This document shows, piece by piece, positions 25,052 through 59,212 of a stretch of DNA of 64,000 nucleotides. This DNA comes from a virus. Taxonomy: Duplodnaviria > Heunggongvirae > Uroviricota > Caudoviricetes. The notes under the pieces are model-generated. The model saw nothing but the letters and a program-made list of their open reading frames with translations. It made no database searches and was not told the origin of the DNA. Position 1 is the first letter of the stretch; every line of letters begins with the position of its first letter. The stretch lies in the IMG/VR virus record IMGVR_UViG_3300021399_000121, positions 43,502 through 107,501 of that record. One strand, given 5' to 3'. The position numbers and the translations under genes were made by a program.

Positions 25052-25064
25052 GTTAATTATAAAC

Positions 25065-27016: not shown

Positions 27017-27038
27017 TTAAACGAATGGGGATTTTATA

Positions 27039-27257: not shown

Positions 27258-27445
27258 TGTCGGAAAATATGATTTTTAATTGTGAAAAATGCGGAAAAGC
27301 TTTTTTTGCTACTCCGCAAGATTATAGAACAACTTTTTGACGAGGGGATTTTATAAAAGAATCTTATTGTCCTTATTGCGGCGCCATTATTCAAATACAT
27401 TCAAAAGATAATTCTTTTTCAAGTTCTAATGGAGGAAAATTTTAA
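27257..27445 (+). CDS. Paralogous zinc-ribbon protein (CEKCG ... CPYCG) with an in-frame TGA at 27338-27340.
   Basis: Overlapping starts and stops (TAATG at both ends). The two Cys pairs are restored only if the TGA is sense. Confidence 0.35.
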
Positions 27446-28413: not shown

Positions 28414-29100
28414 ATGAAAAAAATAATTCTTTTAATATTGATTATTTGTATATGCATTTTAACTGGATGCAATAAATCACAAATAAATGAATCAAAACAA
28501 GAAACTTTTTTATTACCATTAAAAGAACAATTTTTTGAAGAACCAAAGGCACAAAAAGATACGGTTGTAATTAAAAAACAAAAAGAAAAAAAAGAAAACA
28601 ATGGTTTAATAGAAGAAGAAGAAAAAAATAATAATCTAATAGAAGAAGAAAATTATGTTGAAAATGTTGTAACAGAGGAATATATTGAAGATGTTCCAGT
28701 AGAAGAGTATGTTGAAAATGTTCCGACAGAAGAGTATGTTGAAGATACATCTTATAAAGAAGATATTGCTCCAATAGAAGAACAAGAAAATAATGTATCC
28801 ATACAAGAAGAAAAAAATAATAGTGCAGATATAAATAATTCTAATTTAACTCAACAATCTGGGGTTAATTATTATGACGGTCGTACGGAAACATATTATT
28901 CTTCAAATGCTTTATATCATAAAGATACTGATCAATGGACAGTAGATGATGAAGGTTTCTATAGAACTGATGAAGGATATTATGTAGTTGCGGCTAGTGA
29001 TATGCCGCAAGGTACTACTTTTGAAGGTAGTAAAGGTACTTGTATTGTATTAGATAGCGGCTGCGAAGAAGGCGTAACAGACTATTATACTAATTTTTAA
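28414..29100 (+). CDS. Lipoprotein with a Glu-rich repeat region.
   Basis: Signal peptide MKKIILLILIICICILTGC with lipobox LTGC; EEEN repeats. Confidence 0.5.
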   Translation: MKKIILLILIICICILTGCNKSQINESKQETFLLPLKEQFFEEPKAQKDTVVIKKQKEKKENNGLIEEEEKNNNLIEEENYVENVVTEEYIEDVPVEEYVENVPTEEYVEDTSYKEDIAPIEEQENNVSIQEEKNNSADINNSNLTQQSGVNYYDGRTETYYSSNALYHKDTDQWTVDDEGFYRTDEGYYVVAASDMPQGTTFEGSKGTCIVLDSGCEEGVTDYYTNF

Positions 29101-29312
29101 ATATAAACAAATGCCTGTTCGACTCAGGCTCGGTCCTCCTGTGGGCTGATCGTTTAAGTACGGCAAGACTTGTTTTAAAATATTTGTTGACGGTTGTTTA
29201 ATTTTTATGCTATAATATATACATAAGGTAAGGGAGATAATTATTCGAATTAATTGCTGTCTCTCTTGGATGATTAGTTTAAAAGAAAAAATAATTAAGC
29301 CTTAAATTTTTA

Positions 29313-29342
29313 ATTGACAATTAAATAAAAAATATGTTATAA
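29313..29342 (+). promoter_or_regulatory. Consensus promoter firing into an ORF-free block. A second tandem promoter lies at about 29172-29205.
   Basis: TTGACA at 29313-29318 and TATGTTATAAT ending at 29342. Confidence 0.5.
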
Positions 29343-29349
29343 TATAAAT

Positions 29350-30110
29350 ATAGAAAAGGGAAAGTTAAACATTCTCGCCAATATCAACCAAAGCGGTTCC
29401 GGGAGCAACGATTTGGAGAGACGGCCTAGACGCGGGTGTGGGAAGTGATGCCACATAGCGAAAAACGAGAGTGGGGAGTAGCTACCCCAGGAATTGGTCG
29501 GGATACAACGAGAAGGCTCGTACCGAGTAAACCTAAGTCGAAGGTAAGAATGTTTAACTATTCGTTTTCTGAAACGAAGTACAAAAGAGATGGGTTCTCC
29601 ATTCTCGTATAAGGTTGATAGTCCTTTCAAACTAAACTATCCGTCCATGCGTGATGACGTTAAAAGCTAACGTATAGCGAAAGGTTGACGAACCAAGTAG
29701 CGGCGTAAGGGTTTTCTTATGCTTTCTTTTCCAACAATGCTTCGGCCGTAAGCAGCCACGTGATAAGTGGTATAAAGAAAGCGCCATAGAGATGGTGACA
29801 GGTCCGATTGAATGCTGAAGCTCATGCGAACTCGGTAAGCGAGTTAGGGTACAAAGGCTAAACCCTCCGAGTAATGTGCACGTAGTTTGTTAACTCTTCT
29901 TCTGCGAAAGCCGAACCAAAAAAGAAGAGAAATTGATACTGAATGGTCAAGGAAAAGACAGAAAAACCAAAGTCGTGTGAAGACTATAAAGCTCGGCTGG
30001 TTTTGTGGACATAGGCAAAGAACTTCCTACCAGAAAAAATATTAGGAAGGGGTTTTTCCAGCGGCAGGTTGTGAGTCCTGATAAAGTGCGTAAAGACGCC
30101 ACCCGCATTT
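29350..30110 (+). ncRNA. Candidate structured ncRNA (about 760 nt) immediately upstream of tRNA-Cys and tRNA-Ser.
   Basis: No ORF of 75 aa or more. GC is about 48%. It is promoter-driven. The minus-strand ORF 29337..29630 is likely an antisense artefact. Confidence 0.35.
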
Positions 30111-30117
30111 ATTTTAT

Positions 30118-30197
30118 GCGCATATGGCGGAGTCTGGTCGATCGCAACGGCCTGCAAAGCCGTATAATCGTTAGTTCAAATCTAACTATGCGCTCCA
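30118..30197 (+). tRNA. tRNA-Cys (anticodon GCA).
   Basis: Acceptor GCGCATA/TATGCGC, anticodon stem ACGGC/GCCGT with loop CTGCAAA, T-arm GTTAGTTCAAATCTAAC, CCA encoded. Confidence 0.55.
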
Positions 30198-30201
30198 ATA
30201 T

Positions 30202-30294
30202 GGAAGTGTGGCCGAGTGGTTGATGGCGCTTCTCTGCTAAAGAAGTAGGCGATGTAGAGTCGTTTCCGGGGTTCAAATCCCCGCACTTCCTCCA
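30202..30294 (+). tRNA. tRNA-Ser (anticodon GCT), type II.
   Basis: Acceptor GGAAGTG/CACTTCC, anticodon stem CTTCT/AGAAG with loop CTGCTAA, long variable arm, CCA encoded. Confidence 0.55.
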
Positions 30295-46820: not shown

Positions 46821-46904
46821 ATGATACGGAAGGCCATATGGTCGGTTCCTTTCTCTTAGGTGAGTTTCTGACGGCTCACCATATAATACACGGTGATCCT
46901 GACT

Positions 46905-46935
46905 AAGCCGTGGGTTAAGGCGTCCGAAAGGGCGC
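46905..46935 (+). terminator. Rho-independent terminator closing the plus-strand block.
   Basis: GGCGTCCGAAAGGGCGCC followed by TTTTCTTTT. Confidence 0.55.
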
Positions 46936-47621
46936 CTTTTCTTTTATGTGGTGCGGTGCGGTGCGGTGCAGCTGTCTAAAAAACTTTAAACAAATGTAAT
47001 ACTTTTTGGTGAACGGTATTAAATTTGCCGCGGATGGTAAGAATCGCTCTAGACGAATGTAATAAAGATATGATATAATTAATCTTAGAGATTAATTAAT
47101 ATATAAATATATATTTCTATATTATTATTATAGTTATATATATTTCTAATCCCCTAATATAATATATGTTGCGTTTCTCTCTCTTTTAATCTTATAATAA
47201 CTATTTAATAATATTTTATAACGATATTTTTACTAATAATTGCGTGCGGCCCTATACTAAAGTATAGGCCCTTACGCTTATACAGCGCCACTTTGAGCTA
47301 AAGCTCAAGGGCGCTTTTTTTATTGTCTAAAATTATTTTATTTAAAAAATAATTAAACTAAAACTATGCGGCGAACTTGACAAAAGCATAATTTTATGAT
47401 ATAATTAAAATGATTATTTTTTTAAAAAAAAAGAAGCTCTCAAAATAGCTTAAAAAAATCCCTAAAAAGTTGTTTTGTCCCTTGGCAAACCTTATGATAA
47501 ATGAGCTTTTTGCTGGGCAGAGAGCGCACTTCAGCTAAGCTAAAATAAGCTTTCCGACCAAGTAATCAGACCCTTTTTAAAATTGCGCAAATGAGAGCAA
47601 ATCAAGTAGTTTTCCACAACG

Positions 47622-47630
47622 TTATCCACA
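47622..47630 (+). promoter_or_regulatory. Perfect DnaA box TTATCCACA, with flanking TTTCCACA-like half-sites.
   Basis: GTTATCCACA at 47621-47630. Confidence 0.4.
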
Positions 47631-47750
47631 CTTTTTCCACCTATGGCCGCACGCCTTTATTTATTCTCTTCTCTTGGAATTTACTTGACAGAAACACAAA
47701 TTTATGATATAATTAAATGTTAATAAATTATAGCTGGTGTCAATAAATTT

Positions 47751-47839
47751 GCCTATAGCGAGTGCAAATTCGCGGCCTTATAGCGAGCACGGCTCGATGC
47801 GCCTATAGCGAGTGTCATCGTGAGGCCCTATAACGGCAG
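47751..47839 (+). repeat. Four direct repeats of GCC(T)TATAGCGAG (iterons or a centromere-like site).
   Basis: Copies at 47751, 47775, 47801 and 47825. Confidence 0.6.
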
Positions 47840-48032
47840 TCGTACATCCGTTCGGTTTTGGGATTTTAGTGAATTAATTGTGAAGATTTTGTGGAGATCG
47901 AATTTTTCCCTTGACTATGTGGTATAATTTCGCTAGAATGCGCCGCATTCTAGCGCTGAAAGGTTTAAGCAAAAGAAAAACCCCGCCATTACTGGGCGGG
48001 GTTCTCGCCATTACTGGGCGATTGGGTGAGAG

Positions 48033-48398
48033 TTACACCAGCTTGTAGCCGACGTAACGCCCTTTCACCTTTTCGACTTTCTCCACCTTGCCAGCGGAGA
48101 TAAGCACGGCCATAACCTTGGTGCATTTCTGCGAAGTCATGATGCCGTTGACATGCTCCATAATCCACGAGGTCAGCACAGGCTCACCCTCGGGCATAAC
48201 CTTGAGCACTTCACCAGCCAGACGGACGTTTTCCTTGGCCGCCTTGGACGGCTCATCAGACTTTACGCGAGGTTTGGTGATACTTGCTAGCATCTTGGCT
48301 GCGACCTCACGAGCATCCTCACGGGCGAGGGTTTCGTAGTCGCCATTTACGACAGCGGTCAGGACTTCAGCGCGGGTGATGGTGATGTTCTTAGCCAT
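48033..48398 (-). CDS. GC-rich HTH-like paralogue (MAKNITITRAEVL...).
   Basis: The start was trimmed to the ATG behind the conserved leader. The ORF track frame was extended upstream. Confidence 0.45.
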   Translation of the reverse strand: MAKNITITRAEVLTAVVNGDYETLAREDAREVAAKMLASITKPRVKSDEPSKAAKENVRLAGEVLKVMPEGEPVLTSWIMEHVNGIMTSQKCTKVMAVLISAGKVEKVEKVKGRYVGYKLV

Positions 48399-48639
48399 AA
48401 TCGGCTCCTTTCGGTTGTGGGTGAGAACTTTTTTCTCTCTCCCTCTGACAGTTAATATATTACCAGAGATTGCCGCAGGGGTCAACAAAATTTTGTGTCT
48501 ACACATTCTCTCCATAATTTCAGGATTTAAAACAAGCCTCTGACCTGGGGTTTTGGCGATCGATTTTTTTCCATGCCGGCACAAGGGCAAATTCGCTTGA
48601 TTCCGCCGGAATCAAGCGCTGAAAGGGTTCTAGATAGCA

Positions 48640-48668
48640 AAAAACCCGCCTTTTTGGCGGGTTTTGCT
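48640..48668. terminator. Bidirectional rho-independent terminator.
   Basis: AAAAAACCCGCCTTTTTGGCGGGTTTTGCTTT. Confidence 0.6.
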
Positions 48669-49367
48669 TTAGAATTGCTGGAAACGCTTTGAAATTTCTT
48701 TCCAATGGGGATTGTGTAAGCACATTCCAACAAAATCTGAATCAAATTTGCGCTTACGAGAGAGAATTTTGCAGAAAATGAAGGCTTCTATTTCGCAATC
48801 TTCGCGGGCGGTGTGTTTTTCTTCAAATTCAGGCGCATTTTTCAAATATTTGTAAACCGCTTCGGCGCCTGTCTGCGGATGGCCTTTTGCAGTGGTCAGG
48901 CCATGTACCGCGCAGAATTTCAGATAGTTTCGACTATTGCACAGGACGGACAAAGCCATATTCCAAATGTCCATGTATTTGACCTTAGATTTAAAGAAGT
49001 CCTCATATCCAAAATATTTGGCGGTCTTGGTCAGATGCGAAGCGTCAAACCCTGCATTGTAGGCGCACACGGTAGCCTTAAAAGCTTTTTGCACTTTGTT
49101 AATCGTGGAACGAATTTCTGCGAAGGGGAGAACTGTAAACGCTTCGGTTCCCATGAAAAGCTCAAAGTAATATTGAGCGATTTTAGTTTTAGTAAATGGG
49201 TCGTTGAACATGTCAAGCGTTTCAGGGTGATTCATGAACTCTTCACAGACAAAGCTACCCTCAGCGACCATGTTACCCTTGCGGTCGATTACCTTGTAAC
49301 CAAAGTCGAAAACCAGGTCGTTGCACGTTTCAGTGTCAAGAATCATGAAGAACTTTTTGCTTGCCAT
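48669..49367 (-). CDS. DnaQ-like DEDDh 3'-5' exonuclease.
   Basis: Exo I ILDTETCND, Exo II YNAGFDASHL and Exo III HTAREDCE. Confidence 0.55.
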   Translation of the reverse strand: MASKKFFMILDTETCNDLVFDFGYKVIDRKGNMVAEGSFVCEEFMNHPETLDMFNDPFTKTKIAQYYFELFMGTEAFTVLPFAEIRSTINKVQKAFKATVCAYNAGFDASHLTKTAKYFGYEDFFKSKVKYMDIWNMALSVLCNSRNYLKFCAVHGLTTAKGHPQTGAEAVYKYLKNAPEFEEKHTAREDCEIEAFIFCKILSRKRKFDSDFVGMCLHNPHWKEISKRFQQF

Positions 49368-49708
49368 TTTATTTCCTTTCTCTCTCTGACAGTTAATATA
49401 TTACAGCATATGCCGCGCATAGTCAAGCATTAATTTCGGGATTTTGTTTCTTCATAATTTCTTCACAATCGATCGTTTTGTTTTTCCCTTGAGCGTAAAA
49501 AGGCAAATTCGCTCGCTTCCTGCGTAAGCGAGCGCTGAATAAAAAAACTCCCGCGTCCTGTGCGCACAGGCTGATAGCGGGAGGGAGTCTATTCTTCGGG
49601 CACCTTACCATTCCCTTTTGTTTGGCGGGGCTACCGCATTAATAAACTGTTTAATCACCTCTTTTGGATTGTGGGCGGGGAATTTCACCCCGCCCTGTTT
49701 AGATTGGT

Positions 49709-50029
49709 CTAAAGCTTGTAAACTTTGACCTTTTCGGTCGTGGGAATCTCTTCCCACCCCATTGCCTTGCAGATGGCATTTGCCTTGGGTTTCGAGACCT
49801 CCAGAATTTCAGCCACATTTGCAGCCTTAAAAGTCTCTTCATCCCAGACCTCGGCGAACTTTTCACCAAGGGCGATGTTCGCATCATGCTTTGCCGTGTT
49901 AGCCTTGCGGGGACGCGGCTTCGTTACCTGAGCGTACATCTTCTCCAGAACCTCTACTGCTTCGGCATTCTCAACAGCAGCAATCGCGATTTCCAGAGCT
50001 TCCTTGCGGGTCATCTTCTTCTCGGCCAT
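49709..50029 (-). CDS. HTH-like paralogue (MAEKKMTRKEALEIAIAAVEN...).
   Basis: The start was trimmed to the ATG behind the leader AGGAAAATGACATG. Confidence 0.45.
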   Translation of the reverse strand: MAEKKMTRKEALEIAIAAVENAEAVEVLEKMYAQVTKPRPRKANTAKHDANIALGEKFAEVWDEETFKAANVAEILEVSKPKANAICKAMGWEEIPTTEKVKVYKL

Positions 50030-50746
50030 GTCATTTTCCTTTCTTTCGTGGGGAGGTTTTCCTTTTTTCCTCTCCCCTCCTGACACTTAGTATATTACTC
50101 CTGTTGCCCCTCAGAGTCAAGCAAAATTTTCGAGAATCTTTCCCTCCATATTTCCTTCACAATTGCGGTTGTGCCGGCGAATGAGCTCCTGACCTGGGGA
50201 AATGGGATCTTCCTGATGGGTTTAAATGTGAGTGATCTAGTCAACTTTTTCCCTAGTGCGTTTAAAGGGCAATTCGGTCGTTTGCGCCGCAAACGACCGC
50301 TGAAAGCAAATCGCCCTGCCGACCTGACGTGCAGCGGGGCGATAAGTTTTAATTTACCAAGCACGATATTGCTTTTCTGCAATTTCGCGATACCTGCCAT
50401 TTACAGTATTGCGGAAGATACGCCACAGTTTAAAGAATGGGTTTCTAGTTCTAAAGCCGTGTGCCCACAAGAACCAAAAGTTTTCAATTGACTTTTTCTG
50501 TGTCCAAGCAGTAGCAGCACGAATCATTTTGTCTCTTTCAGTAAACATAATTTACCCCACAATCAGAATCGAAATTACCACAAAGATTTTTCAGTTAATT
50601 TTAACCATTCAAAATTACAGTTACGGCAATACTCACAATCATCAGGATACCAAGAACAATCTACCCGTTCAAGTTTAATTAGTCTTTCAACTTCTTTTTG
50701 ACGTTTTTTTGCAAGTCGTTTTTGTTCTTTTTTACTTGGCATAATC

Positions 50747-51043
50747 TTACCCCACAATCAGAATTGAAATTACCAGTCCAGCGGTGAGAGCAGTCAGACA
50801 AGCGTTTTTGATTTTGTCGGCTGCGGGGCGCTCCAAGTAGAAATCACGACCAAGAGCAATGAGGTTTGCGGCCAACCAAATGAGCTGTGCAACTAGTGCG
50901 AGGTCAAAGCGGACGAGCACCTGACCGATAATGGTCAAACCCAGACCCAAGAGTTGAAGATTCTCAACCAGTGCTACGTGCTTGCGGCTTGCCAGTTTGT
51001 TTGCTTGCTTCTCAGTCATTTTTAGTTCCTCTCTCTCTGACAA
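50747..51043 (-). CDS. Small membrane protein with two or three TM helices.
   Basis: ORF track entry; follows the conserved leader CTGTCAGAGAGAGAGGAACTAAAA. Confidence 0.45.
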   Translation of the reverse strand: MSEREELKMTEKQANKLASRKHVALVENLQLLGLGLTIIGQVLVRFDLALVAQLIWLAANLIALGRDFYLERPAADKIKNACLTALTAGLVISILIVG

Positions 51044-51166
51044 TTACATAGTATCATATTGATGGCATAATGTCAACTAATTTTTTAAAATTTCTTTGTT
51101 TCTATAAAATCCTTACAATGGAGCCAAGGCATAAAAACCCCTCGTTTGAGGGGTTTTAGTCATTGT

Positions 51167-51448
51167 TTAATTATTAGTAATTATTATTTGCCAATCATTC
51201 CCCCAATAGGGCTCAATGCTCAATATTTTGTAATTAAACCATCGTTTTATGCAAATAGGGCAATTATCTTTTTCGTTAGTCCAATTAATCATATTACCAA
51301 TTCTTTGTTCAGAGCTTGCTGAATAATCCCAATCTTCAATATTTTTGTTCAAATAAGTTTGATTATCGGATACGATAAAAAGATATATTGTAGCGTCATC
51401 ATCAAGTTCGTTTTTTTGTTCTGTTAGCCAATTTTGCAAGCTCATCAT
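51167..51448 (-). CDS. Hypothetical 93-aa protein.
   Basis: ORF track entry; conserved leader. Confidence 0.45.
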   Translation of the reverse strand: MMSLQNWLTEQKNELDDDATIYLFIVSDNQTYLNKNIEDWDYSASSEQRIGNMINWTNEKDNCPICIKRWFNYKILSIEPYWGNDWQIIITNN

Positions 51449-52179
51449 CTTAGTTCCTTTCTCTCTCTCAGTGATTACATCTTACACTAATTGCGGCGTG
51501 GTGTCAATTAGAATTTCAGGATTTTTTTGTCTCTACAGAATCTTCACAATCGCGATCGATCTTTTCTGGCCCGGGTGTAATGGTAAAATCGTGCGCTTTG
51601 GCCGAAAGCGCACGCTAAAAGCACTTAGGGCGGGTCACTACTCCCGCCCTCCCGTTGCATCACTTTTTATTTTAACGCCAAGAGCAACGCTGGACAACGA
51701 ACTTGGCGAGTGAACACTAAAGAGAAGCCCAGAGCTGGCACAAAATAGGGCCAAAAATCAAGCTGATAAAAACGAGATACACAACACATACAACTGGCAC
51801 GGCGATTTTCATAATTAGTCCTTCCAAAAGAAGTGGCGTAGGTGGAGATTGCCTAGCGCCCCGCTCAGGTTTAAAGAGGTTGTCTGACTGCCCCTACATG
51901 GAGGTCTTACTGCACATAGCACCTTGGGTGCCCCTCGGGTCTTACCCGTCTCCGAGCTCCGTCCTCTGACACTGTTAATATTACAGGAGTGCGGCCCATT
52001 TGTCAACCAGAATTGGTGTCTCCATAGGTTCTTCACATTTCAGGATTCCGATCGATCAGTGAGTGCGGTTTGTGCCGGTGATTAAATCTCTGACCTGCGG
52101 AAATAGCGAAAATCGTTCGCGTGGGCCGCACGCGAACGCAACCAGGATGGCTTTCTGGCTGCGTTCTGCGGTTTTTGGT

Positions 52180-52356
52180 TTAGACTTCCACATCCTCTAC
52201 AAAATCGCCATCTTCATCATAAATATCTGCGTGACCTCCGCCCATTTCGCGCAATTCAGCTTCGACCGCATTAATCAAAGACTTGTAGTTGTCATAATAG
52301 AAATAACTGCTGCCGCAATCATCGATGCCGTCAAATTCTACATAGTAAGTATTCAT
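52180..52356 (-). CDS. Small acidic 58-aa protein.
   Basis: Conserved leader GGAAAGAGGATG. It is absent from the ORF track because it is shorter than 60 aa. Confidence 0.35.
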   Translation of the reverse strand: MNTYYVEFDGIDDCGSSYFYYDNYKSLINAVEAELREMGGGHADIYDEDGDFVEDVEV

Positions 52357-52442
52357 CCTCTTTCCTTTCTCTTTACCTTACGGGTAAATTGTATCATAGA
52401 AAACAGTAGAAGTGAAGACCCCTTGCGGAGTCTTCACATTTT

Positions 52443-52640
52443 CTACACGTAGTATTCTTTACCAGAGGGGGTTACAATTCTCGCGACTTGCACATGATTA
52501 ACATAAACGAACTTTTTAGCTTCATCCATGACTTCAACGATGCAAGTTGCTTTGTATTCCCGCACACAGGAGCGACCAATAAAATCTTTGTACTTGAGCT
52601 GATAAACAACCTTTTTTGCGACTTTCTTTTTCATGGTCAC
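52443..52640 (-). CDS. Small basic 65-aa protein.
   Basis: ORF track entry; leader AGAGAAGGGAGTGACCATG. Confidence 0.4.
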   Translation of the reverse strand: MTMKKKVAKKVVYQLKYKDFIGRSCVREYKATCIVEVMDEAKKFVYVNHVQVARIVTPSGKEYYV

Positions 52641-52667
52641 TCCCTTCTCTCTTGGACTACGTCCAGT

Positions 52668-52916
52668 TTACCAGAGGTCTACCACAATATCAAGGTCGTT
52701 TTTGTCCTTCACATCTTCTCCACAATCGCGAAGTTGTGGCAAAAGATTTTCGCTTAATGGCATAGTAATTTCTGCCCCGACAAAGTCTTCTGAATCGAGA
52801 ACAATCTCTTCAGCAGCAATACGACGTTCGATTTCTTGAATAGCATCAGCCATAGTATCGGCTTCAATTACAATACGACGTTCGAGAGTTTCTTTGTAAT
52901 CAAAAGTGAATTTCAT
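52668..52916 (-). CDS. Hypothetical 82-aa protein.
   Basis: ORF track entry; leader AAGGAGAATTCATT. Confidence 0.4.
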   Translation of the reverse strand: MKFTFDYKETLERRIVIEADTMADAIQEIERRIAAEEIVLDSEDFVGAEITMPLSENLLPQLRDCGEDVKDKNDLDIVVDLW

Positions 52917-53458
52917 AATGAATTCTCCTTAACGATGACGATTGACCAACATACTGACTAAAAAAGGAGGAATAAATCCAGCTAAAAAGGGAACGAGTAC
53001 ATTACAAATAAATGCAGTCATAATTAATCCTCCTGCCCTTCTTCATCTTCATCTTCATACCGATGAGTAAAAATACTTTCAATCTCTCCATTCTTCATTT
53101 TTTGCTCAAAAAATTTTTGCGATTCTTGACTTTTTTTCTGAAGAAATTCGAACAGCGTCATGATTAATCCTTTCCTTTCTCTCTTGGATACATAATATCA
53201 TAGTCAGTTTCAGGATGCAATACTCTTCACAAAATCGTCACAATTGGAGTGATTTTTTTCAGCCTCGCGATAAACGTAATTTCGCTCGCTTGCGCCGCAA
53301 GCGAGCGCCCAAAGGTTTGGGCGCTCTTTTCATTTTTATTTTTTAAAAATTTTATTTTGCCAAATTGCAATTTCATCTTCATTCAAAAAGAGGGCTATTG
53401 CAATTATGATTATGAAAATGAATGCAATAATCAAATCAGAAAGTAACATTTCAATTTC

Positions 53459-53671
53459 CTAAGCTTTAAATTTGTTTCCCCAACCATCAGACAAATACAG
53501 CGGTTTAATAGTGTCTTTACAATTCCCTATAAAGGAAACAGCTTTATTAATGGCTTCTGCAACACCCAAGCATTTTCCGAGGTCGGTTTGACGATTGACC
53601 CATTCATTTTTATAGCTATAGTAAATCGCATAATGGAGCTTGTAATTGCCAACCCATTCCCGTTTCACCAT
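53459..53671 (-). CDS. Hypothetical 70-aa protein.
   Basis: ORF track entry; conserved leader. Confidence 0.4.
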   Translation of the reverse strand: MVKREWVGNYKLHYAIYYSYKNEWVNRQTDLGKCLGVAEAINKAVSFIGNCKDTIKPLYLSDGWGNKFKA

Positions 53672-53875
53672 TTCAGTTCCTTTCCTTTAACTTACAAATA
53701 AATTGTACTATAGATTATTTCCATTGTCAAGAAGAATTTCAGGATTTGGCTTCTTCATAATTACTTCATAAGTGCGGAAGATCTTTTTTCTGATGTAATT
53801 AAATGTAAAATCGTCCGCTGTGGCCGACAGCGGACGCGGAGCCTTTTTTGACTCCGCGTCCAAAAGAGAGAAGAA

Positions 53876-54082
53876 CTAGAAAAGTCTTTCGAGGTCTGCC
53901 CAGCTGTAGCCAATCGCAGGGGAGAGAATCAAGCGGCCAATTCCGATTTGCCATTTGAATTGCTCTTCTGCCTTCTTTTTAGCTTCAAGCAAATCTTCCT
54001 TGGTTGCGAAGAAGTCTACTCGCTGTTCATACAACTCAAAGGTGTCCTCATCTATCCATTCCCAAACCAGCATGAACTCCAT
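53876..54082 (-). CDS. Hypothetical 68-aa protein.
   Basis: ORF track entry; conserved leader. Confidence 0.4.
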   Translation of the reverse strand: MEFMLVWEWIDEDTFELYEQRVDFFATKEDLLEAKKKAEEQFKWQIGIGRLILSPAIGYSWADLERLF

Positions 54083-54277
54083 GATTTTTCCTTTCTCTCT
54101 CTCCCTGATGAATACATAATACTACAAAACATTACAGGATGCGGCATTTCCACATAATCTTCACAATTGCGATATTTTCTTTCTCTACCGGGTGTAAAGT
54201 GAATTTCGTTCGCGCTGGGCCCAGCGCGAACGCTGAGAGAGTTGCGGCTCTCTCGCGTTCATGATTTAAGCTCTTTT

Positions 54278-54724
54278 TTACAGCAGCTCCCGCAAAGCTG
54301 CAATCATCTTTTTAGTATCGGATGCATCTATCGTTTCACCCTTCCAAGCATTCCGCACGTCTGAATTATCGTCTACCAGAATAGAGTCTTTCACATTCCG
54401 CACATAATGTTTAGGAGTACCATATTTCACAACATGAAATTCAGAAAATACGCCAGGGAAGTATTCATCGCACCATATCTTTTTGGCTTTGCGGGTACGC
54501 CTACAATATTCACGGCTACCACCCATAGCACCCCAAGAGATAACACCAAGAATAAAACCTGCGGCCAGCAGTGCATTGAAAAGTTGCCGCAACTCTTCTA
54601 TATCAAAGATAACCGCGCAATCTTTATATGGAGTTGTATCTTCTACTTTCAGCATTTCCAGCCATCCCTCATATCCGTAGAGGTCTGCAATTGTTCCGTC
54701 CATGTCAAAATAGATAGCCTGCAT
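54278..54724 (-). CDS. HAD-superfamily phosphatase.
   Basis: FDMDGTIADL matches HAD motif I (DxDGT); 148 aa. Confidence 0.5.
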   Translation of the reverse strand: MQAIYFDMDGTIADLYGYEGWLEMLKVEDTTPYKDCAVIFDIEELRQLFNALLAAGFILGVISWGAMGGSREYCRRTRKAKKIWCDEYFPGVFSEFHVVKYGTPKHYVRNVKDSILVDDNSDVRNAWKGETIDASDTKKMIAALRELL

Positions 54725-55264
54725 TTGATTTCCTTTCTCTCAGTGATTACATACTACCATAATTCGTCTCTTGGAGTTATGGGATTCGCATATTCATAAT
54801 ATATACATATATTGCGAGTACGATTTTTCCCTGTTCATGCAAAAGGGCAATTCGGCCATTTGCTCTGAAAAACGCGCCGCAAATGGCCGGTTAAGCCTTA
54901 TACGCTTATAATTACATTATATCATAGCTTGAATTATATGTCAACCAGTTTGTCAAAAAATTTCTTATATTCACAAAATTCACACATTTGACCTTATAGT
55001 ACTGTATGTTTGCTTTATGTGCTTTATATGGAGATTTTGTGGAGATATTGTGTAGTTTCAGGATTGTAAAATAATTGTGTAGATATTGTGAAGACTCTTG
55101 ATTTTTCTCTATGTATATGGCACAATATCTCGCCCAACTTGTGGAGATTTTGTGGAGATATTGTGAAGATAATTGTGGAAATATTATGTTTTCAATGTGC
55201 AATTATTGAGGAGAAGCGACCCCTTTGTGGGGCCGCCCCCCTTTAAAACATGTGAATATTGAGC

Positions 55265-55561
55265 TTACAACTCAACAATAGAGATAAACTCATCGCCGTT
55301 CGGGTAACGCACGCCACCGCACATATACCCGAACATGTCCGCCAATTCGTCCAACGTCTCAATATAATCATCGTCGCTAGGAAACAGGCCATCAAACACG
55401 ACTTCGCAGCCCTGATACGAATACAGAATGTTTTCGTAAGCATACAGAGACAAGACATTGTCGCCGTATGTATTTGTATGCGAGTAGTTCATCATTTCGT
55501 CGAACAGGCTCTCAAGGTGATTTTTAACGCTTGCGTTGTTGGTGTTCATTTGGTAGGTCAT
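55265..55561 (-). CDS. GC-rich small protein (MTYQMNTNNASVKN...).
   Basis: Trimmed start; the 5' leader hairpin is TTGACCCGAAGGGTCAA. Confidence 0.4.
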   Translation of the reverse strand: MTYQMNTNNASVKNHLESLFDEMMNYSHTNTYGDNVLSLYAYENILYSYQGCEVVFDGLFPSDDDYIETLDELADMFGYMCGGVRYPNGDEFISIVEL

Positions 55562-56032
55562 CTTAGTTCCTCTCTCTTTCGGTTGACCCTTCGGGTCAAT
55601 TATAGCGTTGTCAATACTTTTTTTCAATGTTTTTTAAAATTAATCGGTGAGCGGTTAAATTAATCGGTAAATGGTAATTTTAGGATAGTATAAAATAATT
55701 GTGTAGATTTTGTGTAGACTATTGTTTTTTCTTTGCAAGTGTGGTATAATTTTTCGCTGAGATATGTAGATTTTGTGGAGATTTTGTGGAAATAAATTCA
55801 TAGAAAAAACATAATAATTTACATAATAAAAACATAATTAATTCATACAATCCTCATAATTATTTTACATAATCTCCATAATCAGGATACAAAATAAATT
55901 GTGTAAATGTTGTGAAGAGTCTTGATTTTTCTCTACATATGTGGTATAATATTTCGCCAATTGTGGAGATTTTGTGAAGATTTTGTGGAGATAATCGTGG
56001 GGAGGCCGAAGCCTCCCCTCATGGTCATGTTG

Positions 56033-56311
56033 TTAGAGTTCTTGAACCCTTACATATTTGAACATGTACCAGTATCCATTAATAAGTGCGGACTCATGCT
56101 CAATAAACAATTCATATCCAAACTCTGGGAGAATGTCGGCAAGTTCGTACATGTCAATGTACCCCGTTTTCTCACTCTGTAACACTTGCCATGTCCCACT
56201 GTTTTGCAATTCATCCATCGAAGCCCACGTGTTTGCGCTAGCGTCTGTTTCGACCTGATGCGCGAGGATTGTCTCTATAATCTCGTTGATGTAGTTTTTC
56301 ATGTTCGCCAT
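56033..56311 (-). CDS. GC-rich small protein (MANMKNYINE...).
   Basis: Trimmed start; the leader hairpin is GGCCCTACGGGCC. Confidence 0.4.
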   Translation of the reverse strand: MANMKNYINEIIETILAHQVETDASANTWASMDELQNSGTWQVLQSEKTGYIDMYELADILPEFGYELFIEHESALINGYWYMFKYVRVQEL

Positions 56312-56799
56312 TTGAGTTCCTTCCACTCGGTTTTTGTTTGGCCCGTAGGGCCATTTTACTCTTGTCAATAGGTAAAATCAACGTTTTTTAAAATTAATCG
56401 GTAAACGGTTAAATTAATCGGTAAATGACAATTTAAGATAATATAAAATAATTATGTAGATTTTGTGGAGATTTTATAAAGATTTTGTGAAGATTAATTC
56501 ACAGAAAAAACATAATAAAAGCATAATTAATTCATACAATCTTCATACAATCTCCGGTTTTAGGACACATAATCTACATAAAATCTACATACTATCTTCA
56601 TATTTTCTTCACAATTGCGTGGTATAATTTTTTCGCCGAGATATGCAGATTTTGTGAAGATTCTGCATTTAGTCTTGATTTTTTTCTACAGGCGTGGTAT
56701 AATTTTTTCGCTAGTCATGGAGATTTTGTGGAGATATTACATTTAATATTGACAAATAAAAAGCCCCTCATTTGAGGGGCTTTTGAATCACAATTCATT

Positions 56800-57132
56800 T
56801 TAGCGGCTGTTGTACGTTTCACGCGCTGGACGATTCATAAAGTCGTTGAGGTCTTTCAACAAGGGGAGTAATTCAGAGTTGAAAAATGACTCATCGTCCC
56901 ACACAGTAGCAGCAGTTTGCTTTGCGAGGAAGTGAAGCGCCATCCCAGCAGTTTTACCCTCAGTGTGCGCTTGAGGGTGGTCATAAGTGTACAGGCTCGC
57001 AAGGTAACCGCACTCATAAGGAGAAACCCAAATTTCTACATTACCACGAGTAGCGATATAGCGCATGCCCTCGCGCGTGTTCAGAGCTTCAAATGTTCCG
57101 TTGTTCTTCGTTGCTTTAGTCATTTCAATCAT
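56800..57132 (-). CDS. Hypothetical 110-aa protein.
   Basis: Leader hairpin GAACCCTACGGGTTC. A bidirectional terminator lies at 56760-56786. Confidence 0.45.
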   Translation of the reverse strand: MIEMTKATKNNGTFEALNTREGMRYIATRGNVEIWVSPYECGYLASLYTYDHPQAHTEGKTAGMALHFLAKQTAATVWDDESFFNSELLPLLKDLNDFMNRPARETYNSR

Positions 57133-57618
57133 CCTTCCTGTTGAACCCTACGGGTTCATTGTAGTCTTGTCAATAGGTAAAATCAATATTCTACATAAAT
57201 CTCCATACAAATAACATAATTAAAATTACATACAATCTACATAATTAATTCACATAATCTACATAATGAAAACATAATTAATCCATACGATCTACACAAT
57301 TAGGACACAAAATAAATTGTGGAGATTTTGTGTAGGCTCTTGACATTTTTCTGCGGGTGTAGTATAATATTTCGCCAATTGTGGAGATTTTGTGGAGATT
57401 TTGTGGAGATTAATCCACAGAAAAAACATAATTAATTCACACAATCTACATAATAAAAACATAATTAATTCACACGATCTACACAATTTCAGGATACTTT
57501 AATTGTGTAAAAGTTGTGGAGTTTTTGTGGATTTTTTATGGAGAGCGCGTCAAAATGGTAAAATCGCTCGTTTGCCCTATGCGTGGGTCCGCAAACGAGC
57601 GGCCAGCCCTTTCAAGCT

Positions 57619-57768
57619 GGCCAGGTTGTATTCAGCTACACTCTAGAACGGAGCGTAGGCCAGTTCTCCAGCGTTGGGCTGTGCCGCAATCCACATCTCG
57701 CAGTCAACCTCACAGACCAACCCTTCCTTGACGACCTTGCCAGTAGCCTTCTCGAATACTGTCCACAT
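57619..57768 (-). CDS. About 49-aa protein, MWTVFEKATGKVV...APF. It is paralogue 1 of a pair.
   Basis: Conserved leader AGGAAAGGACAGGACATG. Its sequence aligns with the product of 57960..58091. Confidence 0.35.
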
Positions 57769-57959
57769 GTCCTGTCCTTTCCTCTCCTGCTGACAGGTCT
57801 ATTATACACCTGTGCCCCTGCCGCATGTATGAGAATCAGGATACTCCACAATCTCTACACAACTATATAGATCGCTTGATCTTTCTCTTGGTGCGTGTAA
57901 AGGACATTTCGCTCGCCTAGGCCCGTAGGCGAGCGCTGGGAGGTCTTACTATCCCAGTG

Positions 57960-58091
57960 CTCTGAGCAGGACTAGAATGGCGCGCAATCCAGTTCGTCTC
58001 TATTCTCCTGCGCGTCAATCCACATCATCGCATCTACCTCAGTCTCGAACCCGTCCGCTACGACCTTGCCCGTGTTCTTGTTGAAGACCGT
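57960..58091 (-). CDS. About 43-aa protein, MWTVFNKNTGKVV...APF. It is paralogue 2 of the pair.
   Basis: Forms the C-terminal part of ORF 57972..58385; follows its own leader and promoter. Confidence 0.35.
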
Positions 58092-58302
58092 CCACATATT
58101 CTTTCCTCTCTCTCTTTCTGACATAATCATTGTACCACAAGTCGTGCCGCATGTAAAGATAGATTCAGGACTCTCCACAATCTCTACACAACTCTTTCTC
58201 TTGGATGATCTTTCTTGTGGTGCGCATAAACGATAATTCGCTCGCTGCGGCCCACAGCGAGCGGCCAGGTCTTTGTAGTTTACTGTGCGGTACTGGGGCA
58301 GG

Positions 58303-58526
58303 CTAGTTGCCCAGCCCCATAGCGTCCAGCATATCCCACACTTTGTAGTCATCTGCAGTGGTTCCTGTGGGAGTGAAGTCTGCAATCTCTACTATCCGTA
58401 CGCTTCCGCGCTTGTAGCACGAGTATGTACGAGCTTCTGCCGCATTGTTCTTGCAGGTGGAGAGAGAACCCCACCAGTGCAGGCAGGTCTCGGTGGAGTT
58501 GGCGAAGGTGGCGATGACTGCGAACA
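58303..58526 (-). CDS. GC-rich small protein (MFAVIATFANSTETC...).
   Basis: Trimmed start behind the leader GAGAGAAAGGATACAACATG. Confidence 0.4.
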
Positions 58527-59212
58527 TGTTGTATCCTTTCTCTCTGACAAGTACATAATACACCTTAACTGTATCTGTGTACAGTCTCTTCACAATCTTT
58601 TCATAAGTTTCAGGATATGAAAGATCATATTAGAATATGTATTTGGAAACTATTTTTATTTCTAGTATGCGTAAGTGACAATTCGCTCGTGTTGGCCCAA
58701 CACGAGCGAGCATCGTGAGAGTGTGCACGAGAGAGCGTGCGCGCAAGACCGCACAAAGCCTGCAAAGACGTGCCAGCAAGCGAGACAGCCGGGCTGCACG
58801 AACTGTCCTCTCTTGGGGTGATGGGAGGGTGTAGACATTGTTGCTATTATTTTATCGGTCGAGTATAGAAGACTGTTACATCATTATGATGATAAATAAA
58901 CTTCCTAGTAGGGGGGGTGATTATGGGATTTTTTAATATTGACTTGTGAAATGTCTTTTGCCTCGCAATCCAAAGAACGTACTTTAAATTTTAAATTTCA
59001 AGAACGTACTTAAGAATCCAAATCAAAATTTCCTATATTAAAATTTCCCAATATATCAAATTTCGGAAAACTTACCTCTCTAAAAATTATATTATATAGC
59101 TTAAAATTTTATGTTTCTATCCAAAAAAGTCATAGACAGTGTTGCTTTGTCAGTGATATAATAAGAATAGAAATAAAAGATTTGAGCTTAGCTTAAATCG
59201 GAAAGGAAGCAG

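What the first reader, a model, noticed from the sequence alone, without database searches (positions are those of the whole stretch)
47928..58715. Family of 14 intergenic hairpins with conserved flanks and covarying stems
Every intergenic region of the minus-strand block contains one copy of the element (plus-strand reading): AATTCG, a 9-13-bp stem, a loop containing GCC/CCG, the complementary stem, then CGCTGAAAG. Copies lie at 47928, 48590, 49506, 50271, 51586, 52109, 53278, 53807, 54202, 54849, 57560, 57906, 58236 and 58680. Stem sequences differ between copies (GCTCGCTT, GGTCGTTTGCG, GTGCGCTTT, GTTCGCGTG and others), but base pairing is always kept, which signals selection on structure. 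No U-tract follows, so they are not classical intrinsic terminators. The first copy sits directly after a TGGTATAAT promoter, and all others sit after degenerate versions of that promoter.
Basis: seen in the sequence. Interest (0 to 1): 0.75.

Follow-up and report, generated by a model that had tools for sequence, protein, structure and literature searches.

The report
Boundary hairpins of phage gene cassettes
A large uncultured rumen phage carries 14 copies of a perfect GC-rich DNA hairpin with a fixed neighbouring sequence, each marking the upstream edge of a repeated promoter module between small early genes; the family is real and under selection, but what reads the hairpin is still unknown.

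Summary
Fourteen perfect hairpins (stems 9-12 bp) lie at the stated coordinates and nowhere else in the window. Pairing is 96.8% against 71% in shuffles, and 9 of 11 stem positions change on both sides. Related rumen-phage contigs carry the same family. Between orthologous modules the hairpin is the best-conserved segment (92% identity against 67-77% in the flanks).

Three corrections:
- The genes are on the minus strand.
- The strongly conserved flank is the ~35 nt on the promoter side, not CGCTGAAAG, which is exact in only 3 of 14 copies.
- At least five promoter-bearing intergenic regions of the block lack the element.

Each hairpin plus its box forms the upstream edge of a repeated early-promoter module. 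ORFs with their terminators are swapped between these modules, as in the PeSL cassettes of T4-like phages. The box is a decayed copy of a divergent sigma-A-type promoter.

The hairpins are not classical terminators, N4-type promoters, attC sites or any Rfam family. The mechanism is inferred only. My best guess is a protein-read hairpin that insulates neighbouring cassettes by marking the end of transcripts leaving the upstream gene. A DNA-level role is nearly as likely. I class it as a new variant of a known kind, of moderate interest.

The parts
47906..47967 (-). Hairpin-plus-box unit 14, the last in gene direction. Hairpin 47931-47955 (11 bp, loop GGC on minus strand). Its plus-strand flank keeps an intact TGGTATAAT.
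   Evidence: 52.0 bits; identical hairpin in L007
48569..48630 (-). Hairpin-plus-box unit. Hairpin 48594-48618 (11 bp, loop GGC). Preceded by a canonical terminator at 48641-48665.
   Evidence: 63.4 bits
49485..49546 (-). Hairpin-plus-box unit upstream of the exonuclease-like gene. Hairpin 49510-49534 (9 bp, 7-nt loop).
   Evidence: 58.8 bits; the L007 ortholog differs by a compensatory pair and the loop
50250..50311 (-). Hairpin-plus-box unit. Hairpin 50275-50299 (11 bp, loop GGC).
   Evidence: 70.6 bits; the L007 ortholog has one A.C mismatch
51565..51626 (-). Hairpin-plus-box unit. Hairpin 51590-51614 (10 bp, loop CGGCC).
   Evidence: 60.3 bits; T-A to G-C compensatory change in L007
52089..52150 (-). 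Hairpin-plus-box unit. Hairpin 52114-52138 (10 bp, loop CGGCC). No canonical terminator upstream.
   Evidence: 52.2 bits
53258..53319 (-). Hairpin-plus-box unit. Hairpin 53283-53307 (11 bp, loop GGC). Shares 5 nt with a second hairpin at 53303-53326.
   Evidence: (64.5 bits)
53787..53848 (-). Hairpin-plus-box unit. Hairpin 53812-53836 (10 bp, loop CGGCC). Shares 5 nt with hairpin 53832-53861.
   Evidence: (59.9 bits)
54182..54244 (-). Hairpin-plus-box unit. Hairpin 54207-54232 (11 bp, loop GGCC).
   Evidence: 58.6 bits
54828..54901 (-). Hairpin-plus-box unit with a 15-nt loop. Hairpin 54853-54889. It lies about 20 nt downstream of a consensus minus-strand promoter (54944-54916), so here it is inside a leader.
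   Evidence: 47.0 bits
57540..57613 (-). Hairpin-plus-box unit with a 15-nt loop. Hairpin 57565-57601.
   Evidence: 43.1 bits
57885..57947 (-). Hairpin-plus-box unit. Hairpin 57910-57935 (10 bp, 6-nt loop). Its antisense flank keeps TTGATC at the -35 position.
   Evidence: 57.5 bits
58214..58275 (-). Hairpin-plus-box unit. Hairpin 58239-58263 (9 bp, or 11 bp with one U.G on the minus strand).
   Evidence: 56.0 bits; same wobble in L020, Watson-Crick in L007
58659..58720 (-). Hairpin-plus-box unit 1, the first in gene direction, with no gene upstream. Hairpin 58683-58709 (12 bp, loop GGC).
   Evidence: 54.2 bits; identical hairpin in L007 and L020; an independent contig ends inside it
55922..55950 (+). 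Intact plus-strand promoter (TTGATT-17-TATAAT with TGTGG upstream) followed by ATTTCGCC and a TGTGGAGAT array. This is the hairpin-less version of the same module. Further copies lie at 56675-56703 and 57340-57368.
47900..58800 (-). Block of small minus-strand early-type genes. Each has its own TTGAC-17-TAATAT promoter, a conserved leader CTGTCAGAGAGAGAAAGGAA and TGTGNAGA boxes. The hairpin units sit at the upstream edge of 13 of these modules and after the last gene.

Best explanation
What it is (about 0.8 confidence). Each hairpin is the first 25-37 nt of a unit of roughly 60-70 nt. On the gene-sense (window minus) strand the unit reads: CG-variable stem-GGC loop-stem-CG, then AWWTTACC TTTAYRCGCAC nAGRG AAAAAGATC. 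This unit is the upstream edge of a repeated early-promoter module of about 150-250 bp, which continues with TGTGNAGA boxes, AATCCTGAAA, TTGAC-17-TAATAT, the leader CTGTCAGAGAGAGAAAGGAA and the ribosome-binding site. The ORF with its own terminator is the variable cassette. The stretch from hairpin to ribosome-binding site is the constant linker. This makes the arrangement a PeSL-like mobile regulatory cassette system in a large phage of a Gram-positive rumen host. The box is a decayed copy of a divergent sigma-A-type promoter, and the hairpin sits where that promoter's transcript would start.

How it works (inferred, about 0.3 confidence). The hairpin folds in a single strand and is read by a protein that contacts two places: the foot (invariant C-G and G-C pairs, +1 A, +4 T) and the loop (GGC). 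The variable stem only has to pair. Its most likely job is to insulate neighbouring cassettes. It would mark or stop transcripts that run out of the upstream cassette, acting as a factor-assisted or back-up terminator, or as a hairpin that protects the 3' end after cleavage at the conserved G|A junction. Read-through would then not run over the next strong promoter. As a side effect, the conserved linker supplies the homology that lets recombination swap, delete or add cassettes.
For: Shown:
- The family is real and covaries.
- Orientation relative to the genes is fixed, and the conserved flank is always on the promoter side.
- The element goes with the promoter module and not with a gene end. 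The first copy has no upstream gene, and the three cassettes at 55-57.5 kb that have another promoter type carry terminators but no hairpin.
- In about half of the cassettes of the window and of L007 the hairpin is the only stable hairpin, or abuts the only one, between the stop codon and the next promoter.
- Between the window and L007, homology blocks start within 5 nt of the hairpin's 5' edge (L007 2399, 2786, 6807) and end at the start codon (L007 2158 = window 58529), while the ORFs between them differ.
- L011 lacks one whole cassette relative to L007, with the junction inside the repeated module.
- The hairpin is the most conserved segment of orthologous modules: 92% against 67-77%.
- Stem foot, loop and near flank are invariant while the inner stem varies. 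Long-loop variants keep the foot and GG(C/A) next to the 5' arm.
- The box is homologous to intact plus-strand promoters.

From the literature: PeSLs are composite stem-loop plus early-promoter cassettes that mediate modular shuffling in T4-type phages (PMC2839356, PMC4122927). A cultured distant relative, Enterococcus phage VRE9_1, has compact terminator hairpins with the next -35 in the loop.
Against: - The tail after the hairpin (A1-3 T2-4 ACC) is a poor U-tract. The terminator score is negative for all 14 copies.
- Four window cassettes already have a canonical terminator 10-20 nt upstream of the hairpin.
- In three cassettes the upstream hairpin shares 5-6 nt with the family hairpin and wins in the predicted sense-RNA fold.
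- One copy lies inside a leader downstream of a consensus promoter, so it cannot be an efficient terminator there.
- G.U pairs are almost absent and show no strand bias. This is unusual for a purely RNA-level element.
- L020 and VRE9_1 run similar cassettes without this hairpin.
- No binding protein has been identified, and no transcript data exist.
Confidence: 0.4

Rival explanations
1. DNA-level element. The hairpin forms on single-stranded DNA (lagging-strand template, recombination intermediate, transcription bubble) or as a cruciform. A phage or host protein binds it there as a regulator of the adjacent promoters, a priming signal or a recombination hot spot.
For: - Stems are perfect Watson-Crick. 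All 96 variant cells are double changes and none is one-sided. G.U pairs show no strand bias.
- Loops are short and stems GC-rich, next to an A/T run.
- The loop sequence and stem foot are invariant, which fits protein contacts.
- The hairpin stays intact where a competing RNA hairpin would prevent its RNA form.
- N4 shows that a phage can use small hairpins whose variable stem bases need only pair (PMC4496689).
Against: - Variants with 13-15-nt loops are kept in several genomes and would extrude poorly as cruciforms.
- The distance to the promoter varies from 63 to 155 bp.
- No candidate protein was found. No HUH, recombinase or polymerase gene turned up among the ORFs scanned.
Confidence: 0.25
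2. Start-site element of divergent plus-strand promoters. The hairpin is the 5' end of short antisense RNAs, acting as a 5' stabiliser, or it is an operator over +1.
For: - Copy 47931 and its orthologs keep TGTGGTATAAT 2 nt before the hairpin.
- Intact versions of the promoter exist in the same block and in L020.
- Several upstream terminators are bidirectional.
Against: - In the consensus, the position of the original -10 hexamer reads TAAAGG, which lacks the essential last T.
- The adjacent TAAWWT has its invariant A at the wrong position and sits about 21 nt from the -35 remnant.
- At most 6 of 26 copies have a T-G at the extended -10 position.
- The hairpin is better conserved than the promoter.
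- A start 7 nt after the -10 would fall inside the 5' arm, so the RNA could not form the full hairpin.
Confidence: 0.1
3. No present function. The hairpin is a palindromic relic of an inverted duplication, kept perfect by intrastrand template switching and homogenised by gene conversion between modules.
For: - Only double changes are seen, with no intermediates.
- The 3' arm is homologous to the GGCGGCG of hairpin-less modules, so the 5' arm and loop look like an inverted duplication.
- Some relatives do without the hairpin.
Against: - Each locus keeps its own stem sequence across phages that are about 15-30% diverged in the flanks (92% against 67-77%). That is purifying selection, not homogenisation.
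- The family persists in a clade whose exonuclease is only 49% identical.
- Loop and foot are invariant.
Confidence: 0.1
4. Ordinary intrinsic terminators arranged in tandem with the first terminator.
For: - Stems are GC-rich with 3-5-nt loops and a G-C-rich foot, placed after genes.
- A permissive scan flags 5 of the 14 copies on the minus strand.
- ATTTT tails occur in 5 of the 14 window copies.
Against: - An invariant A (often AA or AAA) lies between stem and Ts. The score is negative for all copies.
- Canonical terminators of this phage have long U-tracts.
- Terminators do not need a conserved loop, foot and 35-nt box.
- One copy sits in a leader.
Confidence: 0.05
5. Site-specific cassette recombination sites read on folded single strands, in the manner of integron attC sites or IS200/IS605 ends.
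For: - There is one hairpin per cassette, all in direct orientation, with structure conserved and sequence not.
- Cassette boundaries fall at the hairpin's 5' edge.
- TTAC lies 9-12 nt after the hairpin in many copies.
Against: - There are no R'/R'' core sites and no extrahelical bases. The cassettes carry their own promoters.
- No integrase or Y1 transposase was found in the ORFs scanned.
- The L011/L007 junction lies somewhere inside the about 170-bp overlap of homology, as expected for homologous exchange.
Confidence: 0.05
6. Hairpin promoters for a phage-encoded RNA polymerase, as in N4.
For: - The logic matches: a GC-rich centre flanked by inverted repeats, conserved plus variable stem bases, and an A/T ruler after the stem (PMC4496689).
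- Two copies in relatives have GGA loops.
Against: - Stems are 9-12 bp rather than at most 7 bp (the longest N4 stem described in the review read here).
- Most loops are GGC, which cannot form the G:A pair used in N4.
- No large virion polymerase gene is in the window or the fetched loci.
- The only cultured relative examined (VRE9_1) encodes a sigma factor, which points to use of the host polymerase.
- Every gene already has a strong sigma-A-type promoter.
Confidence: 0.04

Closest known systems
PeSLs (promoter-early stem-loops), the mobile regulatory cassettes of T4-type phages (Arbiol 2010 PMC2839356; Comeau 2014 PMC4122927)
   Same: - A repeated intergenic module holds a stem-loop upstream of a strong sigma-70-type early promoter, then the ribosome-binding site and start codon.
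- The modules are clustered in a region of small, variable ORFs.
- Indels and replacements between related phages have their ends in the modules.
   Different: - Here the stem-loop is not the terminator. Many cassettes have a separate canonical terminator.
- The hairpin has an invariant foot, a conserved loop and a conserved 35-nt box.
- It lies 63-155 bp from the -35 rather than just upstream of it.
- The module is much longer.
- The host is Gram-positive and the phage is not T4-like.
REP/BIME-type repeated extragenic palindromes of bacteria (from my own knowledge)
   Same: - Short GC-rich intergenic palindromes occur in many copies.
- Pairing is kept by compensatory change.
- A short conserved flank adjoins the palindrome, and copies often lie after genes.
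   Different: - REP stems are imperfect and largely conserved in sequence within a class.
- REPs are chromosomal and spread with a RAYT transposase. No such gene was seen here.
- Here every copy has a fixed orientation relative to a promoter module.
N4 virion RNA polymerase hairpin promoters (PMC4496689)
   Same: - Small hairpins lie in the early region of a phage.
- Some stem bases are conserved and the rest need only pair.
- The centre is GC-rich and an A/T stretch follows the stem.
   Different: - Stem length, loop type and copy number differ.
- No virion polymerase is present.
- Each gene already has a host-type promoter.
Integron attC sites (from my own knowledge)
   Same: One structured site per gene cassette, with structure conserved more than sequence.
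   Different: - There are no core sites, no extrahelical bases and no integrase.
- The cassettes are not promoterless.
- The stems are perfect.
RNase III processing hairpins between early genes of T7 and of Bacillus phage SP82 (Panganiban and Whiteley 1983, cited in PMC4838370; details from my own knowledge)
   Same: Intercistronic hairpins in the early region of a virulent phage, possibly defining mRNA ends.
   Different: - Stems of 9-12 bp are short for RNase III.
- The hairpins lie outside the transcription units wherever terminators work.
- No internal loops are present.
Rho-independent terminators
   Same: A GC-rich stem with a 3-5-nt loop, placed after genes.
   Different: - There is no U-tract.
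- An A follows the stem in every window and L007 copy.
- Loop, foot and downstream box are conserved.

Membership tests
PeSL-type mobile regulatory cassette | Repeated intergenic module that combines a stem-loop with a sigma-70-type early promoter, ribosome-binding site and start codon | tested here: met
   The module runs from hairpin through box, TGTGNAGA boxes, TTGAC-17-TAATAT and leader to the ribosome-binding site, and is repeated 13 times.
PeSL-type mobile regulatory cassette | The stem-loop acts as the terminator of the upstream gene | tested here: not met
   The terminator score is negative for all 14 copies. Four cassettes have separate canonical terminators. This is a sequence-based test only, with no assay.
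PeSL-type mobile regulatory cassette | Indels and replacements between related phages end in the modules | tested here: met
   Homology blocks between window and L007 start within 5 nt of the hairpins and end at start codons. L011 lacks a cassette relative to L007, with the junction inside the module.
PeSL-type mobile regulatory cassette | Circular cassette molecules formed by exchange between neighbouring modules | not testable with these tools
   This needs inverse PCR or raw reads.
Intrinsic terminator | Stable GC-rich hairpin followed directly by a U-tract | tested here: not met
   The hairpins are stable (-13 to -20 kcal/mol), but the T-tract score is 0.4-2.1 on the minus strand and at most 1.1 on the plus strand. 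The combined score d is below 0 for all copies.
N4-type hairpin promoter | Short stem (up to 7 bp in the review read here) with a 3-nt loop carrying 5'G and 3'A and a purine at the centre, on the template strand | tested here: not met
   Stems are 9-12 bp. Loops are GGC or CGGCC on one strand and GCC on the other. Only two copies in relatives have GGA. Features taken from PMC4496689.
N4-type hairpin promoter | A virion-packaged single-subunit RNA polymerase encoded by the phage | tested here: inconclusive
   None is in the 64-kb window (largest ORF 674 aa). The rest of the genome is not available.
Integron attC | R''/R' core sites (RYYYAAC ... GTTRRRY), extrahelical bases, and an integrase nearby | tested here: not met
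   The flanks are (T)TTCAG and AWWTTACC. The stems are perfect. No integrase was found in the ORFs scanned.
Rfam families, including CRISPR repeats, ctRNAs and leaders | A match to a curated covariance model | tested here: not met
   Nothing reaches the gathering score in the block. At E up to 1 there are only chance-level hits, such as ctRNA_pGA1 at 24.7 bits against a cut-off of 45.
REP/RAYT system | Imperfect palindrome with a conserved 5' tetranucleotide, plus a RAYT (Y1 HUH) gene | tested here: inconclusive
   The palindromes have a conserved flank, but no HUH gene was found in the ORFs scanned. The whole genome has not been seen.
RNase III site | About two helical turns of double-stranded RNA | tested here: not met
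   Stems are 9-12 bp, and no conserved longer helix encloses them.

The most novel reading that the evidence does not exclude
The hairpins are recombination or priming sites read on folded single-stranded DNA, in the manner of attC sites or IS608 ends. A so far unseen phage or host enzyme would bind them, making the small early genes of this virulent Gram-positive phage true mobile cassettes, in effect an integron-like system in a lytic phage. The evidence is compatible with this reading: one hairpin per cassette in direct orientation, cassette boundaries at the hairpin's 5' edge, perfect strand-symmetric pairing, and an invariant foot and loop. The evidence does not require it.
Probability: 0.07. 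Interest if true: 0.85.

Novelty: new variant of a known kind. Interest (0 to 1): 0.5.

Why it matters
Early host-takeover regions of large virulent phages are the most variable and least understood parts of their genomes. This window shows an unusually explicit grammar for such a region. Constant linkers of 150-250 bp are each opened by a structure-selected hairpin, and between them sit swappable ORFans.

If the hairpin is an insulator or transcript-end signal, it would be a terminator-like device that works without a U-tract and probably needs a factor. If it is read as DNA, it would be a second example, after N4, of a phage using small hairpins as protein recognition sites, or it would be a recombination signal for gene cassettes.

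Either way the element is a compact, testable handle: 14 natural stem variants in one genome, with orthologs carrying compensatory changes. It is also a useful marker for annotating cassette boundaries in this clade of uncultured rumen phages.

Tried and rejected
- Near-identical or annotated relatives. There is no megablast match in 50,697 phage records. The only cultured relatives are Enterococcus phages at about 32% protein identity, and they have a different, compact hairpin-promoter design.
- Rfam. Nothing was found for the hairpins.
- Strand assignment from wobble pairs. Two independent G.U events fall on the sense strand and one on the antisense strand, which gives no signal.
- A longer conserved RNA structure around the hairpin. 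Folds of the sense strand show none. In three cassettes the neighbouring hairpin competes with the family hairpin.
- Reading the flank as a working sigma-A -10 or -35 on either strand. This was rejected from the position frequencies.
- Reading CCTATAGCGAG x3 (47744-47830) as T7-like promoters. The repeats are poorly conserved in L007.
- DnaA boxes. They are not enriched in the window: 10 found, 10 expected. Only one conserved pair exists, at 47610-47630.
- SNPs in near-identical contigs. The block is identical in L001-L006, so they give no information.
- Exact-pattern scans of viral contigs for more copies. One pattern found nothing. The other found only the known clade plus two weak single hits.
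- The metagenome scan gave only short contigs.
- MAFFT misaligned the long-loop copies. I used the 14-copy alignment and a model-based alignment instead.
- A fuzzy-regex script timed out.
- Terminator scores for three of the four control terminators are underestimates, because part of their T-run was counted as stem.

Full report
**Setting.** The window is part of a large, low-GC, uncultured phage.
- It carries a ROOL RNA and 18 tRNA genes, an RNA-repair gene set, and Gram-positive surface-protein and teichoic-acid-type genes.
- No similar DNA exists among 50,697 deposited phages. Identical or near-identical contigs come from ENA, JGI and Logan (SRA) metagenome assemblies; their coding names, together with the ROOL RNA, suggest a rumen origin, which I did not verify.
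- The only cultured relatives are Enterococcus phages of about 134-142 kb, at about 32% protein identity.
- The region 47.9-58.7 kb is a block of small genes, mostly ORFans, on the minus strand. Among them are a DEDD-exonuclease-like protein and a 5'-deoxyribonucleotidase-like protein.
- Most of these genes have their own near-consensus promoter on the minus strand, TTGAC-17-TAATAT. A conserved leader CTGTCAGAGAGAGAAAGGAA follows the promoter, and TGTGNAGA and AATCCTGAAA boxes precede it.
- The block therefore looks like the early, host-takeover region of a virulent phage.

**The observation.**
- All 14 hairpins exist where stated, as perfect inverted repeats with 9-12-bp stems. Loops are 3-7 nt, and 15 nt in two copies.
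- The block contains 17 GC-rich perfect hairpins of at least 9 bp, against 0.02 in dinucleotide shuffles.
- On a clean alignment of the 14 copies, 96.8% of stem cells pair. Shuffles give 71%, and sliding the partner by 1-3 columns gives 25-42%. Nine of 11 stem positions show changes on both sides, and no shuffle reaches the covariation score.
- A covariance model built from the 14 copies recovers exactly those 14 as full-length hits, all on the minus strand, and nothing else in the 64 kb.

**Corrections to the description.**
- CGCTGAAAG is exact in only 3 copies and approximate in 4 more.
- The strongly conserved flank lies on the other side. On the gene-sense strand the hairpin is followed at fixed spacing by AWWTTACC TTTAYRCGCAC nAGRG AAAAAGATC. 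The +1 A and +4 T are present in all 26 window and L007 copies, and the A-run in 20-24 of 26.
- The first two stem pairs (C-G, G-C) are invariant in 37 distinct copies.
- The loop is GGC or CGGCC on the sense strand in most copies. Even the long loops start with GG(C/A) next to the 5' arm.
- At least five promoter-bearing intergenic regions of the block have no copy.

**Relatives.**
- The family occurs in a small clade of related contigs: L007 (exonuclease 81% identical, 14 copies), L020 (3 copies), L011, L013 and L022. In L008/L012 (exonuclease 49% identical) it has a different 5' flank and a shortened box.
- More distant relatives lack it: the contigs whose neighbouring gene is 47-56% identical (apart from one weak hit in L022), and Enterococcus phage VRE9_1.
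- In window-L007 orthologous modules the hairpin is the best-conserved segment, at 92% identity. The 40 nt upstream are 67% identical, the box 77% and the next 80 nt 73%. Six of 11 hairpins are identical.
- Where orthologs differ, they differ by compensatory pairs. Examples are T-A to G-C at 51590 and C-G to T-A at 49510.
- So each locus keeps its own stem sequence under purifying selection, while paralogs differ widely.

**RNA or DNA.**
- All 96 variant cells in the 37-copy alignment are double, Watson-Crick to Watson-Crick changes. None is one-sided.
- Non-canonical pairs are very rare. There are two independent U.G events on the sense strand (58239 shared with L020, and L007 9137). There is one A.C on the sense strand, which would be G.U on the antisense strand (L007 7718). 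This gives no strand signal.
- Such a pattern is unusual for an element selected only as RNA. It fits a DNA palindrome, a requirement on both strands, or palindrome-correcting replication errors.
- Against a cruciform, copies with 13-15-nt loops are retained in several genomes.
- Against a dimeric double-strand-binding protein, the two invariant stem feet lie 25-38 bp apart depending on the copy. They come together only when the hairpin folds.
- I conclude that folding in a single strand, RNA or DNA, is what is selected. I also conclude that something reads the foot and the loop. This is inference.

**Place in the module.**
- The hairpin belongs to the promoter module downstream of it, not to the gene upstream.
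  - The first copy (58683) has no upstream gene.
  - The last copy (47931) follows the last gene and carries a partial module.
  - The three cassettes at 55-57.5 kb use another promoter type. They have terminators but no hairpin.
- The distance to the -35 varies from 63 to 155 bp.
- Read on the plus strand, the box is homologous to strong intact promoters in that 55-57.5 kb sub-block (TTGATT-17-TGTGGTATAAT-ATTTCGCC). The same holds in L020.
- The T-run and often the TTGATC remnant survive, but the position of the original -10 hexamer reads TAAAGG in the consensus.
- Copy 47931 and its orthologs keep the intact extended -10.
- In hairpin-less modules the sequence at the corresponding place is GGCGGCG-AAAAATT. 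The 3' arm therefore looks ancestral, and the 5' arm plus loop look like an inverted duplication. This is inference.

**Cassette behaviour.**
- Between the window and L007, homology blocks begin within 5 nt of a hairpin's 5' edge (L007 2399, 2786, 6807). One block ends at a start codon (L007 2158 = window 58529). The ORFs between them are unrelated or missing, and 4 kb of the window (54.2-58.2 kb) is absent from L007.
- L011 lacks one cassette relative to L007, with the switch inside the repeated module.
- This is the behaviour described for PeSLs in T4-type phages (PMC2839356, PMC4122927).
- Enterococcus phage VRE9_1 shows the textbook compact form, with terminator hairpins that hold the next promoter's TTGACA in the loop.

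**Mechanism.**
- As a classical terminator the hairpin fails. An invariant A, often two or three, separates the stem from a short T-run. A d'Aubenton-type score is negative for all 14 copies on both strands, whereas the terminator at 47979 scores +18.6.
- Even so, in about half of the cassettes of the window and of L007, the hairpin is the only stable hairpin between the stop codon and the next promoter, or it abuts the only one. Its orientation relative to transcription is also fixed.
- My best guess (about 0.3) is a factor-read transcript-boundary signal on the sense strand. It would act as a back-up or assisted terminator, or as a 3'-end-protecting hairpin left after cleavage at the conserved G|A junction, and so insulate the next strong promoter from read-through.
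- Several points weigh against this.
  - Four cassettes already have canonical terminators.
  - A neighbouring hairpin competes with the family hairpin in three cassettes.
  - One copy sits inside a leader.
  - G.U pairs are lacking.
  - L020 does without the hairpin in most of its cassettes.
- A DNA-level role as a protein site on folded single-stranded DNA, for regulation, priming or recombination, is nearly as likely (0.25).
- Smaller shares go to an antisense start-site role (0.1), a functionless self-correcting palindrome (0.1), ordinary terminators (0.05), site-specific cassette recombination (0.05) and an N4-like hairpin promoter (0.04). N4 shares the logic of conserved plus merely pairing stem bases (PMC4496689), but not the geometry, the loop or the polymerase.

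**Verdict.** The finding is real and statistically solid, and it is not in Rfam or any family I could test. What it is can be stated with fair confidence: the structure-selected opening element of PeSL-like early-gene cassette linkers in a clade of uncultured rumen phages, derived from a divergent promoter's start region. How it works remains inferred. I class it as a new variant of a known kind, with moderate interest (0.5).

Noticed in passing
window 55027-55182, 55700-55992, 56464-56735, 57318-57410; also upstream of each early promoter: TGTGGAGAT / TGTGAAGAT / TGTGTAGAT boxes occur 51 times against 13.5 expected and are concentrated in the block. They form arrays with an 11-bp period, for example 55140/55151/55162/55174 and 57380/57391/57402. 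This looks like a binding array for one protein on one face of the helix. The boxes always point the same way as the adjacent promoter.
   Followed up: partly
window 55922-55950, 56675-56703, 57340-57368 (+); L020 about 4940-6300: Strong plus-strand promoters point away from the minus-strand genes. They are followed by ATTTCGCC plus a TGTGGAGAT array in the window, and by a conserved TTTTCGCCGCCATTTGTTA..CTTGGGT in L020, and then by the reverse side of a terminator. They may make short non-coding RNAs rich in GGA motifs.
   Followed up: partly
window 47896-58623: All 16 GATC sites of the 11-kb block lie in the intergenic modules, typically 32-40 nt after the hairpin as AAAAGATC(GATC). None lies inside an ORF, although base composition would predict about 40 sites in the block.
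   Followed up: partly
window 46840-47870: A 1-kb ORF-free region is largely conserved in L007. It holds two adjacent DnaA-box-like sites (47610-47630, minus strand), three CCTATAGCGAG repeats (47744-47830), a perfect consensus promoter (47685-47713, +) and very AT-rich repeats. It may be an origin, or an analogue of the T5 injection-stop region (bioRxiv 10.1101/866236).
   Followed up: partly
window 53283-53326, 53812-53861, 54182-54232; L007 4186-4229: In three cassettes the upstream hairpin shares 5-6 nt with the family hairpin, so the two are mutually exclusive. The overlap is kept in L007 through compensatory change in the other hairpin. On the plus strand, the hairpin at 53303-53326 is followed by a long T-run.
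   Followed up: partly
L033 (Enterococcus phage VRE9_1, PP680567.1) 5305-11421: Intergenic terminator hairpins carry the next promoter's TTGACA in or at the loop, with a TATAAT-like hexamer at promoter spacing downstream (17 nt in the one case counted). Their stems covary. This is a very compact PeSL design and, as far as I saw, it is not annotated.
   Followed up: partly
L020 about 100-3400 (minus strand): Cassettes without the hairpin carry a GC-rich 8-9-mer (CCGGCGCC-like, often containing GCCGGC) at the same place, just upstream of the TGTG boxes. It resembles the apex of the hairpins. GCCGGCA also occurs in three window modules.
   Followed up: no
L016 position 1 = window 58704: An independent 46.9-kb contig (IMGVR_UViG_3300021256_000149) ends inside the first hairpin. 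This could be an assembly break at a repeat, or a hint that the block boundary is a physical end or a terminal-repeat edge.
   Followed up: no
window 21245-21821 and 22610-30294: A full-length ROOL RNA (331 bits) lies next to an array of 18 tRNA genes.
   Followed up: no
window 16027-20992: An RNA-repair gene set: two RNA ligases, a P-loop kinase (AAA_33) and a metallophosphoesterase.
   Followed up: no
window 25244-27016: A phage-encoded protein with Gram-positive pilin (Cna-B/SpaA) domains and a weak LPXTG anchor match. Next to it is a CDP-glycerol glycerophosphotransferase-like gene (27445-28413).
   Followed up: no
window 48033-48398 and 49709-50029 (minus strand); L020 about 250-640: Two paralogous small proteins at the end of the block share a conserved C-terminal half (…MTSQKCTKVM..L…GKV.KVEKVKGRY.GY.L). 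No family match was found. They could be DNA-binding regulators of the module boxes.
   Followed up: no
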